Source: Thermoplasmata archaeon (GTDB taxonomy: Archaea; Thermoplasmatota; Thermoplasmata; Lutacidiplasmatales; UBA184). From it: a DNA stretch of 64,000 bases. The translations under genes and the position numbers were made by a program. Shown one piece after another: positions 6,403 through 59,792 of the stretch. How positions within the stretch are numbered: position 1 is the first letter of the stretch; every line of letters starts with the position of its first letter. Where the stretch lies: contig JAGWLG010000003.1 in NCBI GenBank assembly GCA_028864975.1, positions 32,001 through 96,000 of the forward strand. Direction: 5' to 3'. Below the pieces are notes generated by a model. The model did no database searches. It worked only from the letters and a program-made list of their open reading frames with translations, and was not told the origin of the DNA.

Positions 6403-9400
6403 ATGGGCGAAGGGCCGAGGGTGCGAGGCGCGACACCGGGCCTCCCCCTCGTCGGAAGACGGGAGGAGAGGGAACGGCTCACGGAGGCCCTGAGCTCGGC
6501 GAAGGAAGGTCTGGGGGGAGTTCTGGCCGTCGGGGGCCCTGCCGGGATTGGGAAGACCCGGCTACTGCGCTGGATGGAAGGGGAGGCGAGCCGGCTCGGT
6601 TTCGAGGTTCTCTGGGGGTACGGCATGCAGGAGTCGCCCGTGCCGCTGTTCCCCCTGGACCAGATGTTCCAGCGAGGAGGGAACGACCGGGCCCTGCCGC
6701 TTGAGGGAAGCTCGAGGAGCCCTCCCGCGGAGGCGGAACCTCTCCCCCTTGCGGCCCCTTTGGCGTTCTCGGCATCGCCGGCCGACCTGGCCTGGGGGGC
6801 GGCCACATGGGTGGGGCTCGCCGCGGTCGGTGCGGGGGGTACGGCACGACCCCACGACGACCCTTCGGCCGAGCCCTACACGAGCCGCGTGCTCCGCTAC
6901 TTGGAACGCCTCCAACGGGAAAGCCCGCAGCGACCCATGCTGCTGCTCCTGGACGACATGCAGTGGGCCGATGCGGAGACCCTCGTCGCCTTCCAGTTCC
7001 TGGGACGCAGCCTGAGGAAGCTCTCGGTCCTGCTCGTGGCGGCCTACCGCGATGACGAGGCGGCTCCGCCGGGGACCGACGGGGTCGCCCTGGTGGACGT
7101 GCTGGACCGGCTGGAGCGCGAGGGCCATCTGCGCCCCCTGGCCTTGAAGGGGCTCACGTTCTCGGAAGGGCGGAAGCTTGTCGAGGACCTCGTCGGGAGA
7201 CCGCTCGCGGACTCGCAACGGGGGGCCCTGCAGCTCCTGATGCGCCGTTCCAACGGCAATCCCTACTTCCTGCTGGAGATGGTACGTTCGCTCCAATCGG
7301 AAGGCCGGGTGCGGGTCCAAGGGCCCAAGGCGCTTCTCCGCCTCCCCGCCACGACGGACGAGGACGCCGCGGGGACGCCACGCCCGGACAGCGTTCCCCC
7401 CGCGATCGCGAGGCTCCTCCGCTCCCGTCTCGCCTCCGAGCGGCCGGAGCTCCGGGAGGTCATCGATGCGGCGGCCGTCCTGGGTTCGGAGTTCGAGGTC
7501 GCGCCGCTCGCTCATGGTCTTGGGACGAGCCGCGAGTCGGTGGGCACGGTTCTCCTCCAGCTCCATCGCGCCGGGCGCCTCGTGCTGCAGCGACCCGGCG
7601 ACCCCGATAGGTACGCGTTCCAGCACGCTCTGCTCTGGGAGGTGAGCCGTGACGAAGTTCCCTCGGACCGGGCACGCGCGCTCTCCCGCGCGTACGCTGA
7701 CTGGTGGGCGCAGTTCCGCAGCCGTGAGCTCGAGACCATCGCCCGGCTCTACCACGCCGCGGGGGAGCGGACGCCCGGGCTCCCTTGGATCGAGCGGGCG
7801 CTGCGACGTTCGTTCGACGCGGGGACGATGGAGACGACACGTCGGCTCCTCCGTTGGGCCCAGGACCTCTTTCGTGGGGATCCCCAGGGGACCGACGGGT
7901 ACGCTCGGCTCGTCCTCGCGACCGTCCGCCAGCTCTACTTCCGTGGCTCCCTCTGGCAGTGCAGCGACCTCCTCAAGGGCGTGCTCGCCACCGAGCTCTC
8001 GGGCGAGCTTCGCCTCTGGGCCGAGCGATACCTCTCCGAGGCCATCCAGACGACCGACTTCCACGAGGCCCGACGTATCTTGGAGGAGCTCCAGGAAGCT
8101 CAGCTCCGGTCCCCGGAACGCTTCTCCCGTGAGCTCGAGGCCGAGGTCCGGCTCGTGGAAGCGAGCCTCCTCTACCATGAGGACCGCCTGGAGGAAGCCT
8201 CGGCGGCCGCCGAAGCGGCGCTCGAGCGGTTGGGGACCCGGGGAGATGCCTTCCACCGCGCCAAGGCCCTGGAGCACCTCGCGAAGGCCGACATCTACCG
8301 CGGCCGCTACGCGGAAGGGCAGCGACGGCTCGACCAGGCGATCACGCTCGCGGCCGAGTCGGCGGTGCCGCAGTTGCGGATCCGTCTCGCCGGGACCCAG
8401 GGGTCGTTCTTCATGCGGGAGGGGCGGCTCGTGGAGGCGCAGAACGCTTTCGAGCTTCAAGTGGCCCAAGCCCGCGTGCTGGGCCATCTGCCATCCCTCG
8501 TGCAGGCGCTCAACAGCCTCTCCCACGTCCTGGAGAACCGGGCCGACTGGGATGGGGCCTGGAAGGCCGCGGAGGAGGCCCGGCAGCTCGCCGAGCGGCT
8601 CGGCCTCACCCGAGCGGGGGTGGAGGCCCGGGCGAGCCAGGCCGTCGTGCTCGTCGAGATGGGGCGGTGGAGCGAGGCCCTGCCCCGTCTCTCGGACGTC
8701 CGGGACCGAGCGAGCCAGGTCGGCGTCCCCCAGTACGTCACGATCGCGGACCTCCTCGCGCTCGAGGCCCGCGGTGCTCTGGGTGAGGCCAAGGGAGCGT
8801 TGCAGGAGCTCGCGGCCCGAGAGCCCTCGGTCGACCTGACGCTCCCCGACAACCGTGCCCTTTTCCTTCGGATCCGAGGGTTCCTGAGGGTCCAAGTGGG
8901 GGACCGCGAGGGCTCGGAGGAGGACCTCAAGGAAGCTCTCGAGATCTCGGAGCGGGTCCCCCTCAGGATCTCGAGGGCGGGCACGCTCGACGTGATGGTC
9001 CAATGGCAGAGCCGGTTCGGCGATGCGAGGTCCCTGGTGGAGGCACGCGAAAGGGCGGACCGTGCCTTCGCCGAGATCGGGAGCCGCAGGGTCGACCGTT
9101 TCAGCGCCGCCGGCGGGCCACCGCCCGGCCGACACCCGCTCACGCGGCCCGGCCCTTGGGGGGCCCGTGCACGAACGCGAGCGGAGGCTCCGCCCACTCC
9201 CACGCTTTCGACCGCGGCCCCGCTATCTCACCGGATCCTGCAACACCTGGCCGGTCAGGGGGCATGGGCCGGGGCGATCGAGCATGCCCCCCGGGTCCCG
9301 CCGTCGATCACCCAGGAGGGGTTCGGCCAAGCGCTGGGAGTGTCCCAGGGCAGCTTCGCGAAGGCCTTGGTCCGCCTGGAGGAGCGAGGGCTCGTACGCC

Positions 9401-45876: not shown

Positions 45877-45951
45877 GGGCGCGTAGCATAGCCCGGACGA
45901 TGCGCCGGCCTTCTAAGCCGGAGAACCGGGGTTCGAATCCCCGCGCGCCCG
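45877..45951 (+). tRNA. tRNA-Arg (TCT), no intron, CCA not encoded
   Basis: Acceptor GGGCGCG/CGCGCCC, anticodon arm CCGGC-CTTCTAA-GCCGG, T arm CGGGG-TTCGAAT-CCCCG. Confidence 0.95.
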
Positions 45952-56738: not shown

Positions 56739-57800
56739 TCAGCTCCCTCCCAGGTGGATCTTCCCGCGGAACTTCGCGTACATGGCGTAGGAGAGGGGAA
56801 CTCCCCCGTCGAGGAACTCCTGGACCGGGGGGCCGTGCTGCCGGTCGAAGCCCTCGATCCGGTCGGTGACCGTGAGGTCGAACGCGTCGGAGCCCGCGCC
56901 GCTGCCGTACCCGACGACCAACACACGGTCGCCGGCCTTGGCGTGGTCGAGCACGTTCGCGAGCCCGAGGAGCGCGGCACCGGAGTAGGTGTTGCCCACC
57001 CACGGGGTCACGAGACCGTACTTCATCTGCTGGTCGGAGAACCCCATGGACTTCCCGATGCGCTGAGGGAACTTCCCGTTGGGCTGGTGGAAAACGACGT
57101 GCTGGTAGTTCTGAGGAGAGGTCTGCGCCCGCTCCATCATGCGCCGCCCGCACTCTCCCACATGGCGGAAGTAGGCCGGCTCGCCCGTGAACCTTCCTCC
57201 GTGGCTCGGGTAGCGCTGGCCCTCCCGACGCCAGAAGTCGGGGGTGTCCGTGGTGAAGCTCTCCGTCGCGTTGATCTCCGCGATCAGGTTCTCGCGGCCG
57301 ATCACCAGCGCGGCCCCGCCAGCGCTCGCCGAGTACTCGAGAGCGTCACCGGGGGCGCCCTGGGAGGTGTCCGCGCCGATCGCGACACCGTAGGTGATCA
57401 TCTTGCTCGCCACCATCCCCATGCAGGTCTGGATGGCCGCCGTTCCCGCCTTGCAGGCGAACTCGAAGTCCGCCGCGGTGAGGTAGGGGGTCGCGCCGAC
57501 AGCCTGGGCGACGACCGTGGCCGTGGGCTTCACGGCGTACGGGTGGCTCTCGCTCCCGACGTAGAGCGCCCCGATGTCCCGGGGATTGATCTTGCCGCGG
57601 GTGAGCGCGATGCGCAGCGCCTCGGTCGAGATGGTGATGGTGTCCTCGTCCGGGGAGGGGACGCTCTTGCGGACGACGTTCAGCCCCTTTCCCATGGCGG
57701 CCCCATCGGTCCCCCAGACCTGCCCGATCTCCTGGGGCGTGATCCGGTAGCGCGGGACGTAAGCGCCGTAGCTCACGATGCCGACCTTCTCTTCGGTCAT
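56739..57800 (-). CDS. Hydroxymethylglutaryl-CoA synthase (archaeal)
   Basis: [49 protein letters not shown]; GGAG 7 nt before ATG 57800. Confidence 0.93.
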
Positions 57801-57840
57801 GTCCATTCTCCTTGCTCCTGCTCTTCGATACGGTGTCGGG

Positions 57841-58518
57841 TCAGATCTCCTCGAGACGCTTCAGGACCTCCTTCGGTCCGTACGGGGTCGTGAGGAGCGG
57901 GATGTTCTCCACCTCGGAGAGGCGGACCGCCAGAGGGTCGACGCGGCCGGGGGCGGAGTAGATGACGGCGGCGGGTTTGAGCGGGTGCGCGCGGATCGCG
58001 ACCATCGGGGAGCGACCGTACTTGACGCCGCAGAAGAGGAGGGCCCGCTGGGTCGTCCAGCCGTAGACCTGGACGAACTCCTGGGCCCCCAACGACAGGA
58101 TCGCCCGCGGGGCGTCGAGGAGGGTGAACCCGTGCAGGTCCCGGTGGAGGTCGACCCGGCTCGCGGGCTTCGCGTCCAGGAGCGAGGCGAGGGTCGTGAG
58201 GGGCACCGCGATGGAGAACTCCCGCATCGCGAGGATCCCCTCGGCGGGGGAGGGGAACCCCATCCGCTGGATGACGCGGCCTCCGTGCGACTTGTCGACG
58301 GCGACCAGCCCTTCCACGTAGCGTCGGATGAACCCGGCACCAGGGCTCTGACGCCGCTCGGCCTCGTAGTCCGCGATCACGGAGGGGACGGTCTCGAGCT
58401 GATGGGCGAGCTCCGTTTGCGAGATGCCGAAGTCCTCGCGCCATTTGCGCAACGTCCGCCCGGGATGGGGGGATAGGACTACCTCGCCCGCGATCTTCTC
58501 GCGGATCTCGACCGGCAC
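57841..58518 (-). CDS. XRE/cHTH transcriptional regulator (COG1709-like)
   Basis: [26 protein letters not shown]...PSVI.DYE..RR.SPG; GRSPMVAIR. Confidence 0.82.
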
Positions 58519-58655
58519 GGAGGTGAGGGAGGGGGCGGGGTACTAAAGCCTCACGCTACTTGTCGAATTGCGTATTCGACAGTTCGTGTGTCCCCTGACG
58601 GTGCGGTGGCGGGAGAAGGACCTGCAGCACCGGACCGGACGATAAGGAGGGGGAG

Positions 58656-58758
58656 TGGACTGGGCGAGATGCTCAGGAGGGAGGGGGGTCCTCTCCTCCG
58701 TTTGAACTCGCGGCCTCTACCTTGCCAAGGTAGCGATCTTCCACTGATCTACCAGCCC
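58656..58758 (-). tRNA. tRNA-Ala (GGC) with a 31-nt intron at position 59/60 (intron 58670-58700)
   Basis: Exon 1 (58758-58701) GGGCTGG...CTACC-TTGGCAA-GGTAG...GCGAG-TTCAAA; exon 2 (58669-58656) TCTCGCCCAGTCCA; G3:U70 pair; complete BHB at the junctions. Confidence 0.92.
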
Positions 58759-58826
58759 GTCTCCCCGCCGAGAGCGCGCAGACCACGGGAGTTATACCCT
58801 TTCGCTGGACTCCTCCCTCGACCTCC

Positions 58827-59792
58827 GTGCAGCTCCTCGTTTACGACGACCTCAAGCCGGAGATGGAGGCGAGCCGGGCGGCGACCCACCTCGGAGCCTT
58901 CGGCGGCTTCCTCTCGCCCTCCGAGGTCGCCATCTGGAGGAGGCTTGGGTCCTTCTCTGACTACGTCGGGGTCTTTGCGGTCGAAGCAGGGCAGGTCCTT
59001 GGCCACGCGTACGCGTTGAGGCTTCCCTACACGTACCCGGACGGCCGCGTCGAACGCGTGAGCGGGGTCGCGGGGGTGGGCTCACGACCGGACCATCGTG
59101 GGCGAGGCCTCGCGCGTCGGATGCTCGAAGAGATCCATCGAAGGGAGAGGAAGGAAGGGATCGACCACATCGCGCTCTGGACGAACCGTTCCTGGGGGGC
59201 CCACGGCATCTACGAGAGGTTGGGCTACCAGGACGTGTATGGGATCCCGCTCGCGGTCCGCGCGGTGCCGCGGACCATGCGGCCCGCCTCCAACACGGTC
59301 CGCGTTCGACACGGAAGGGTGACCGACCTACCCCGGCTCGAGGAGGTCCACGTTCGGGCGACCCGAGGGAGGATCGGGTTCACCCCCCGCCTTCCCCGGA
59401 GCCTCGTTGCCGAGCACAAGGCCCGCGCCCTCGACCCACCGAAGGACCTGCTCGTCGCCACCGACGGCGGTCGCCCGGTGGGGTATGCCCGGGTCGAGGA
59501 AGATCCCTCGCGCGTGCGATGTCCCGAGCTCCTTACCGAAGGGCCAGGGGCCGCCCTTGCCCTCATCGAAGCCATGGAACGACGTGGGCGCGGAAGGATG
59601 TGCACATGGTGCCTCTCGGCCGTTGCGGACCAGGGAGCGGAGCTCCGCCGGCGAGGGTACCTGTTCGTCCCCACCGGGTGGTACGGGATGATGGCGTGCC
59701 GGTTGCGCGGAGAAGCGAACGCTTCCCAGGTCCGGGCGGAGCTGGGGGTGGACCAGCCGCGGTGGGTCGTCCACCGCGGGGACCAGTTCTGA
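58827..59792 (+). CDS. Tandem GNAT (Eis-like) acetyltransferase
   Basis: VAGVGSRPDHRGRGLARRM, A.GIYERLGY, second GNAT-like half. Confidence 0.78.
   Translation: MQLLVYDDLKPEMEASRAATHLGAFGGFLSPSEVAIWRRLGSFSDYVGVFAVEAGQVLGHAYALRLPYTYPDGRVERVSGVAGVGSRPDHRGRGLARRMLEEIHRRERKEGIDHIALWTNRSWGAHGIYERLGYQDVYGIPLAVRAVPRTMRPASNTVRVRHGRVTDLPRLEEVHVRATRGRIGFTPRLPRSLVAEHKARALDPPKDLLVATDGGRPVGYARVEEDPSRVRCPELLTEGPGAALALIEAMERRGRGRMCTWCLSAVADQGAELRRRGYLFVPTGWYGMMACRLRGEANASQVRAELGVDQPRWVVHRGDQF

What the first reader, a model, noticed from the sequence alone, without database searches (positions are those of the whole stretch)
58656..58758. tRNA-Ala(GGC) with a T-loop (59/60) intron and a complete bulge-helix-bulge
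Sequence: the 31-nt insert CGGAGGAGAGGACCCCCCTCCCTCCTGAGCA sits between A59 and U60. It folds as T-stem GCGAG/CTCGC, central helix TTCA/TGAG, bulges AA|C and CA|T, and outer helix GGAGG/CCTCC. Removal restores TTCAAAT and a G3:U70 acceptor. Established: euryarchaeal-type tRNA introns are mostly at 37/38; non-canonical positions are typical of Thermoproteales and some DPANN. Inference: unexpected intron mobility or endonuclease breadth in this lineage; standard tools may miscall the gene as a pseudogene.
Basis: partly seen in the sequence, partly recalled or inferred. Interest (0 to 1): 0.8.

Follow-up and report, generated by a model that had tools for sequence, protein, structure and literature searches.

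The report
Alanine tRNA gene with T-loop intron
This is a real, probably essential alanine tRNA gene of an uncultured soil archaeon (Thermoplasmata), split in its T-loop by a 31-base intron of a known protein-spliced kind; one whole family has kept this intron since its common ancestor and carries unusually many such introns.

Summary
Window 58656-58758 (minus strand) encodes tRNA-Ala(GGC) with G3:U70 and A73. A 31-nt insert (58670-58700) lies between A59 and U60 and folds into a strict 3-4-3 hBHBh' motif.

It is an ordinary archaeal EndA/RtcB-spliced intron at a known non-canonical site, not a pseudogene. The same interrupted T-arm occurs in 59/59 other genomes of the host family and in 0/341 genomes of 34 other Thermoplasmata families. 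Exons are nearly invariant. The intron helix covaries at 6/6 pairs. A BRE/TATA-like box is conserved upstream. In four near-complete relatives it is the only Ala(GGC) gene found.

- The intron is old and vertically inherited.
- It resembles no other intron in the genome.
- EndA is an ordinary alpha'2 type, collinear with EndAs of families that lack the intron.

The lineage context is unusual. This genome has at least 9 T-loop introns. A covariance-model census gives 5-13 per genome in the family against 0-5 elsewhere. Only the window's genus has a fully paired central helix; 30 of 33 relatives have an A.G mismatch.

This scan found the orthologous intron before on other genomes.

The parts
58656..58758 (-). 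Whole pre-tRNA-Ala(GGC) gene, 103 nt (mature 72 nt; no CCA encoded)
   Evidence: the spliced form is called tRNA-Ala(ggc) by ARAGORN
58701..58758 (-). 5' exon, tRNA positions 1-59 (58 nt; D-loop lacks one position). Anticodon GGC at 58724-58726.
58670..58700 (-). 31-nt intron between A59 and U60
   Evidence: Orthologous 27-34 nt introns at the same site across the family.
58656..58669 (-). 3' exon: U60, T-stem 3' strand CTCGC, acceptor 3' strand CCAGTCC, discriminator A73
58703..58711 (-). T-stem 5' strand GCGAG (helix h, 58707-58711) plus T-loop UUCA (5' strand of central helix H, 58703-58706)
   Evidence: fold. T-stem invariant in 33/33 sequences; H pairs counted.
58700..58702 (-). 5' bulge A58-A59|C. 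Predicted 5' cut after A59.
   Evidence: the cut rule comes from established knowledge of BHB cleavage
58676..58699 (-). Intron hairpin. The outer helix h' is GGAGG (58695-58699) paired with CCTCC (58676-58680); an inner stem-loop lies between them.
   Evidence: All 6 h' pairs show double (compensatory) changes across 33 relatives.
58669..58675 (-). 3' strand of H, UGAG (58672-58675), plus 3' bulge C-A|U60 (58669-58671). Predicted 3' cut before U60.
   Evidence: The U that pairs with A57 is found only in the window's genus (3/33); elsewhere it is an A.G mismatch.
58792..58804 (-). BRE/TATA-like promoter box (cgaaag-ggtataa), about 36 nt upstream of the mature 5' end, in roughly 68% GC DNA
   Evidence: A purine run followed by a TTTAT/CTTAT/TATAA box lies at the same distance upstream of all 23 orthologues printed. 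Its promoter function is inferred.

Best explanation
This is a functional tRNA-Ala(GGC) gene, the only conserved one and the decoder of GCC/GCU. It is transcribed as a 103-nt precursor whose T-loop carries a 31-nt archaeal bulge-helix-bulge intron at 59/60. The T-stem acts as helix h. T-loop bases U54-A57 pair with the intron's UGAG to form the 4-bp central helix, and the intron hairpin supplies h'. This copies the geometry of a canonical 37/38 intron, which also lies between loop positions 6 and 7 on a 5-bp stem. The genome's single homodimeric alpha'2 EndA recognises the motif independently of its position and cuts after the second base of each 3-nt bulge. RtcB then joins the exons, restoring UUCAAAU. 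The intron was gained once in the ancestor of this Thermoplasmata family, as part of a family-specific build-up of T-loop introns, and has been inherited vertically since. Shown here: the gene, the motif, conservation, covariation, the enzyme genes and the phyletic pattern. Inferred: transcription, cleavage and ligation.
For: Cloverleaf, G3:U70 and the strict 3-4-3 BHB appear in an unconstrained fold. The spliced form is recognised as tRNA-Ala(ggc). The interrupted T-arm pattern is in 59/59 other f1 genomes across 7 genera and in 0/341 genomes of 34 other families. About 20 out-of-family Ala(GGC) genes read directly have no 59/60 intron. Among 33 relatives there are only 9 exon variants, G3:U70 is invariant and acceptor pair 5:68 covaries CG<->UA. 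The intron sequence is free, but all 6 h' pairs carry double changes; 94% of cells are paired against 32-52% when the partner is slid, and 0/500 shuffles reach the observed score. In four near-complete relatives the only Ala genes found are GGC (with intron), CGC and UGC. A BRE/TATA-like box is conserved upstream. EndA is one 374-aa gene with two N+C repeats. It aligns full-length to A. fulgidus alpha'2 EndA, and the positions I take to be the catalytic Tyr/His/Lys (Y304/H319/K350) are invariant. RtcB is present.
Against: There are no RNA data, so splicing is inferred. G000 also holds an intronless Ala(GGC)-like gene on contig C2. That copy has C33, abuts the end of an ORF and was not found in three congeners and one other family member, so it is unlikely to be the housekeeping copy. 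Genomes are MAGs (G000 is 89.6% complete), so absence claims apply only to the genomes searched.
Confidence: 0.9

Rival explanations
1. One reading: the intron reflects current intron mobility and/or an EndA with broadened specificity in this lineage.
For: The genome has at least 9 T-loop introns, and the family has 5-13 covariance-model hits per genome against 0-5 elsewhere. Because U54-U55-C56-R57 is near-universal, one intron 3' end could fit any tRNA (inference). In 30/33 relatives the central helix has an A57.G mismatch, which is not strictly the 3-4-3 motif that alpha'2 enzymes are said to require (PMC3239211).
Against: The Ala intron is fixed family-wide and was not found outside the family. 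It shows no significant similarity to the other introns once constrained ends are removed and hairpin-preserving shuffles are used (best of 36 pairs p = 0.026; Ala pairs p >= 0.17). EndA is alpha'2, has no insert near the catalytic His compared with A. fulgidus, and is collinear between 8 in-family and 4 out-of-family enzymes. The window's own motif is strict.
Confidence: 0.1
2. The gene is a pseudogene: a tRNA-Ala gene disabled by a 31-nt insertion.
For: ARAGORN does not call it, the Rfam score is borderline, and a second Ala(GGC)-like gene exists on C2.
Against: The exons are under strong purifying selection across 7 genera, the intron helix shows compensatory changes and the promoter box is conserved. 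It is the only GGC gene found in near-complete relatives. The C2 copy is unique to G000 and atypical.
Confidence: 0.03
3. The insert is not removed; the tRNA functions with an enlarged T-loop or extra arm.
For: No direct evidence. It is simply not excluded without RNA data.
Against: The insert keeps exact BHB spacing (3-nt bulges, a 4-position central helix) while its sequence and length (27-34 nt) drift. That pattern is the signature of selection for EndA recognition, not for a structural arm. A retained insert would also disrupt T-loop/D-loop contacts (established tRNA knowledge).
Confidence: 0.02
4. The insert is an assembly or binning artefact.
For: The genome is a 124-contig MAG.
Against: The same architecture was assembled independently in 59 other genomes, and it lies inside a 150-kb contig.
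Confidence: 0.01

Closest known systems
59/60 introns of Candidatus Micrarchaeum acidiphilum ARMAN-2: pre-tRNA-Pro(GGG), strict hBHBh' at 53/54 plus 59/60, and pre-tRNA-Cys(GCA), relaxed hBH at 59/60 (Fujishima et al. 2011, PMC3239211)
   Same: Same insertion point in the T-loop, same protein-spliced BHB logic and short hairpin introns. The Cys intron was cleaved in vitro.
   Different: ARMAN-2 is a DPANN archaeon with a three-unit epsilon2 EndA that carries a specificity loop. Here the host is Thermoplasmata with an ordinary alpha'2 EndA, the motif is strict, and the intron is a family-wide conserved character.
Non-canonical-position BHB introns of Crenarchaeota/Thermoproteales, listed at 20/21 ... 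53/54, 56/57, 59/60 (Marck & Grosjean 2003 and Sugahara 2008, as summarised in PMC4090602)
   Same: Same kind of 'transplantable' splice motif, including position 59/60. Many tRNA genes per genome are interrupted.
   Different: Those hosts have (alpha-beta)2 EndA with the Crenarchaea-specific loop, introns at many positions, often relaxed motifs, and sequence-similar introns that suggest transposition. Here the extra introns found by my scan and model, both of which looked only at this site, are at 59/60, and no similarity between introns was detected.
Canonical 37/38 euryarchaeal tRNA introns cleaved by alpha'2 EndA (A. fulgidus, H. volcanii; PDB 1R0V/2GJW)
   Same: Identical motif geometry: a 5-bp stem, a 7-nt loop split between loop positions 6 and 7, 3-4-3 hBHBh', and the same enzyme class.
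   Different: The motif is built on the T-arm rather than the anticodon arm, so the central helix uses the invariant UUCR of the T-loop instead of anticodon-loop bases.

Membership tests
Archaeal EndA-spliced (BHB) tRNA intron, non-canonical position 59/60 | hBHBh' motif: two 3-nt bulges on opposite strands, separated by a 4-bp helix and flanked by helices | tested here: met
   The unconstrained MFE fold gives a 5-bp T-stem, CAU, UUCA:UGAG, AAC and GGAGG:CCUCC.
Archaeal EndA-spliced (BHB) tRNA intron, non-canonical position 59/60 | Excision at the bulges restores a standard cloverleaf | tested here: met
   ARAGORN calls the spliced sequence tRNA-Ala(ggc); the T-loop becomes TTCAAAT.
Archaeal EndA-spliced (BHB) tRNA intron, non-canonical position 59/60 | The structure, not the sequence, of the intron is conserved among relatives | tested here: met
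   There are 33 distinct introns of 27-34 nt. All 6 h' pairs show double changes and the bulge lengths are constant.
Archaeal EndA-spliced (BHB) tRNA intron, non-canonical position 59/60 | The host encodes the splicing endonuclease and RtcB ligase | tested here: met
   EndA on C53; RtcB on C104.
Archaeal EndA-spliced (BHB) tRNA intron, non-canonical position 59/60 | A spliced mature tRNA or excised intron is observed | not testable with these tools
   No RNA data are available.
tRNA-Ala | G3:U70 identity pair, Ala anticodon, A73 | tested here: met
   G3:T70, GGC and A73. G3:U70 is invariant in 33/33 relatives.
Strict 3-4-3 BHB across the host family | All four central-helix positions form standard pairs | tested here: not met
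   This is met in the window and its genus (3/33). In the other 30/33 sequences A57 faces a non-pairing base, mostly G.
Broad-specificity EndA: (alpha-beta)2 or epsilon2 with CSL/ASL-type loops | Heteromeric or three-unit architecture and an inserted loop near the catalytic His | tested here: not met
   It is a single two-repeat alpha'2 gene. The Tyr-to-His segment is 3 residues shorter than in A. fulgidus, and the enzyme is collinear with out-of-family EndAs.
Self-splicing group I/II intron | A ribozyme core of hundreds of nucleotides | tested here: not met
   The intron is 31 nt, and Rfam reports no match here apart from the tRNA model.

The most novel reading that the evidence does not exclude
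One family of soil and peat Thermoplasmata went through a burst of intron gain at the T-loop 59/60 site (5-13 per genome, about 9 of roughly 47 tRNA genes here). It did so while keeping a plain alpha'2 EndA without any known specificity loop, and most of these introns carry a purine.purine mismatch in the central helix. If this enzyme really cleaves them, the textbook link between EndA architecture and the diversity of intron position and motif fails for this lineage. The invariance of the T-loop (UUCR) may explain why this one site is a universal landing pad.
Probability: 0.4. Interest if true: 0.6.

Novelty: new member of a known kind. Interest (0 to 1): 0.42.

Why it matters
There are two practical points. 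First, the only conserved gene for the tRNA that reads GCC/GCU in a 67% GC genome is invisible to ARAGORN and marginal for Rfam. Annotations of this lineage will therefore report a missing tRNA-Ala, or call spurious ORFs across it. Second, reviews state that Euryarchaeota with alpha4/alpha'2 endonucleases have few introns, all at 37/38. This family is a clean counter-example, with a dated single origin for the Ala intron. It is also a natural test set of strict versus A.G-mismatched motifs for asking what an alpha'2 enzyme really tolerates. The intron type itself is well known, and this scan has already met the orthologue in other genomes.

Tried and rejected
- **ARAGORN with unlimited intron length on the whole genome.** It produced mostly false 'introns' and was discarded in favour of a custom 59/60 scan checked by ARAGORN on spliced candidates.
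- **Intron transposition.** Naive shuffles suggested His-Asp and His-Ser similarity (z about 5). This disappeared once the pairing-constrained ends were removed and hairpin-preserving shuffles were used. No Ala pair was significant.
- **A family-specific EndA feature.** An 11-residue segment missing from A. fulgidus EndA (N-terminal repeat) is also present in out-of-family Thermoplasmata, so it does not track the intron.
- **The second Ala(GGC)-like gene on C2 as a possible functional back-up.** It is unique to G000, has C33, and its neighbours have no Pfam hits, including no integrase.
- **A weak covariance-model hit at C81:10640-10703 (E 0.48).** It is an intronless T-arm plus its trailer, so it is a false positive.
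- **Literature.** Two full-text searches found no paper reporting T-loop introns in Thermoplasmata. The 2026 Asgard intron census does not cover them.

Full report
**Observation**

Read on the minus strand from 58758 to 58656, the sequence is a complete tRNA:
- Acceptor GGGCTGG/CCAGTCC, with G3 opposite T70.
- D arm GATC-AGTGGAA-GATC.
- Anticodon arm CTACC-TTGGCAA-GGTAG, giving anticodon GGC.
- Variable loop AGGCC.
- T-stem GCGAG, then TTCAAA, a 31-nt insert, T, CTCGC, and discriminator A.

No CCA is encoded.
- 5-bp T-stem.
- 3' bulge CAU.
- 4-bp helix UUCA:UGAG, including one G.U pair.
- 5' bulge AAC.
- Helix GGAGG:CCUCC, closing a small hairpin.

The fold has an energy of -45.6 kcal/mol and z = -2.9, and none of 200 dinucleotide shuffles was as stable. 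This is a strict 3-4-3 hBHBh' motif. Cutting after the second base of each bulge removes window 58670-58700 and restores TTCAAAT. ARAGORN calls the spliced sequence tRNA-Ala(ggc).

ARAGORN does not see the unspliced gene. Rfam's tRNA model scores it 30.7 bits against a threshold of 29, with the T-arm left unaligned. Because A59 and the last intron base are both A, sequence alone allows 58/59 as well. The bulge geometry selects 59/60.

**Host**

- The window lies in a 3.6-Mb, 124-contig, 67% GC assembly that is 89.6% complete.
- Contigs that encode the closest EndA relatives are all titled as uncultured Thermoplasmata MAGs, many from soil and peat surveys.

**Evidence that it is a working gene**

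A BLAST search of 60 relatives found full-length matches, intron included, in all seven genera of the host family f1. Outside the family only the 5' exon matched.

Reading the loci directly showed the following:
- Every family member examined has a 27-34 nt insert at the same site.
- About 20 out-of-family Ala(GGC) genes have an uninterrupted T-loop.
- One out-of-family genome, G044, has a 37/38 intron instead.

A class-wide exact pattern (the GCGAG T-stem and first six T-loop bases, a gap of 15-45 nt, then U60, the 3' T-stem and the start of the acceptor strand) matched 59 of 59 other f1 genomes. It matched 0 of 341 genomes from 34 other families. The pattern depends on this T-stem sequence. 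The direct reads cover that weakness for about 20 outgroups.

Three of the matching genomes (G028, G236, G323) are flagged unpublished. Without them the tally is 56/56. G028 was left out of my alignments.

Across 33 distinct relatives:
- Exons fall into only nine variants.
- G3:U70 is invariant.
- Acceptor pair 5:68 switches CG<->UA (17 vs 16).
- Intron sequences nearly all differ.
- All six tested pairs of the intron helix show double compensatory changes.
- 94% of cells are paired, against 32-52% when the 3' partner is slid by 1-3 columns. No shuffle out of 500 reached the observed covariation.

In four near-complete relatives (G006, G008, G018, G031) the three tRNA-Ala genes found are GGC (with intron), CGC and UGC.

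Upstream of all 23 orthologues printed, a purine run followed by a TTTAT/CTTAT/TATAA box sits about 30-36 nt before the mature 5' end, in otherwise GC-rich DNA. In the window this box is at 58792-58804. It has the look of an archaeal BRE/TATA promoter. That function is inferred.

**Splicing machinery**

The genome has one EndA gene (C53, 374 aa) with two N-terminal plus C-terminal domain repeats. It aligns end to end with the A. fulgidus alpha'2 enzyme, PDB 1R0V/2GJW.

The residues I take to be the catalytic triad (Y304, H319, K350) lie in the second repeat and are invariant. The segment between the Tyr and the His, where the Crenarchaea-specific and ARMAN loops are inserted (PMC5829648), is three residues shorter than in A. 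fulgidus. EndA is single-copy in 59 of 61 relatives.

An alignment of eight in-family and four out-of-family enzymes is collinear, with no indel that tracks the intron. RtcB is present.

A strict BHB needs no special enzyme. Reviews describe the motif as transplantable and list 59/60 among known positions (PMC4090602).

**Lineage context**

My own scan for T-stem / TTCRAN / insert / T-stem candidates, validated by ARAGORN on the spliced products, found true 59/60 introns in eight tRNAs of this genome:
- Ser-GCU
- Gly-UCC
- Arg-UCG
- His
- Ala-GGC
- Asn
- Ser-GGA
- Asp

A covariance model of the T-arm plus intron (A3/R1) recovered seven of these. It added tRNA-Lys(UUU) on C38, which also has a D-loop intron. 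At E < 0.01 it hit nothing else.

Six further Rfam tRNA hits are 103-117 nt long, which is consistent with anticodon-arm introns. I did not dissect these.

The model was run on 151 Thermoplasmata genomes at least 85% complete:
- All 18 other f1 genomes matched, with 5-13 hits each. This count includes the unpublished G028.
- Other families had 0-5 hits, mostly 0 or 1. Examples are f2 (same order) 0/2, f8 0/17, f20 0/15, and f27 up to 5.

The model was trained on f1 sequences only, so outgroup counts are lower bounds.

Reviews say Euryarchaeota with alpha4/alpha'2 enzymes have fewer than 10% intron-bearing tRNA genes, all at 37/38. They also say these enzymes need the strict 3-4-3 motif. This family departs from the first statement.

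One further detail came out of the pair counts. The base opposite A57 is U only in the window's genus (3/33). In the other 30 sequences it cannot pair and is mostly G, which leaves three pairs plus an A.G mismatch. Several other T-loop introns of this genome show the same purine.purine mismatch when the intron sequences are read directly. Whether the alpha'2 enzyme tolerates this mismatch is the open biochemical question.

**Intron mobility**

The Ala intron shows no similarity to the other eight introns. Apparent similarity among His, Asp and Ser introns disappears once the pairing-constrained ends are removed and hairpin-preserving shuffles are used.

The near-universal UUCR of the T-loop would let one intron 3' end fit any tRNA. 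This could explain why gains concentrated at this site, but it is only an inference.

**Comparison and verdict**

The closest documented cases are the 59/60 introns of ARMAN-2 (PMC3239211) and of Crenarchaeota. They share the site and the mechanism. They differ in host clade, EndA type and motif strictness.

I found no paper reporting T-loop introns in Thermoplasmata. tRNAscan-SE 2 searches for such introns by default, so they may already sit unremarked in databases.

Earlier notes of this scan describe the same orthologue in other genomes and other T-loop introns in this genome. I re-derived those claims independently here.

Verdict: this is a real, ordinary-mechanism intron. It is a new member of a known kind in an under-described lineage.

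Noticed in passing
G000 contig C2:71816-71888 (locus L145:1501-1573), outside the window: A second, intronless tRNA-Ala(GGC)-like gene (Rfam 56.5 bits). It has G3:U70 but C33 instead of U33, and a TTCGATT T-loop. It overlaps the end of an ORF and has no promoter-like box. It was not found in three congeners or one other family member, and its neighbours have no Pfam hits. It may be an acquired or decaying copy.
   Followed up: partly
G000 contig C38: about 9218-9363, outside the window: tRNA-Lys(UUU) with two introns, one in the D-loop and a 41-nt one at 59/60. My covariance model found it at 34.5 bits.
   Followed up: partly
window 58588-59019 (+) and 58749-59006 (-): Open frames of 143 and 85 aa run across the tRNA gene in this GC-rich DNA. 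A gene caller that misses the tRNA could annotate a spurious protein here.
   Followed up: no
Family f27 genomes G132, G156, G190, G196: A second Thermoplasmata family shows 3-5 T-arm-intron model hits per genome, against 0-1 in most families. This may be an independent, smaller expansion.
   Followed up: no
L052 (G044:C268:4315-4680): An out-of-family tRNA-Ala(GGC) carries an insert after the anticodon loop's position 37 (canonical site) rather than in the T-loop.
   Followed up: no
G019 contigs C140 and C223 (L006, L062): This genome, flagged 7% contaminated, holds two interrupted Ala(GGC) genes. One is 95% identical to the window's genus and the other is typical of its own genus, so C140 probably belongs to another organism.
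   Followed up: no
window 56739-57806 (-) and 58827-59792 (+): The flanking genes are an HMG-CoA synthase/thiolase-like protein and a GNAT acetyltransferase. The frames at 57778-58476 (+) and 57797-58444 (-) have no Pfam match.
   Followed up: partly
window 45877-45951 (+): An ordinary, uninterrupted tRNA-Arg(TCT) (66 bits). It is the only tRNA in the window that ARAGORN reports.
   Followed up: yes
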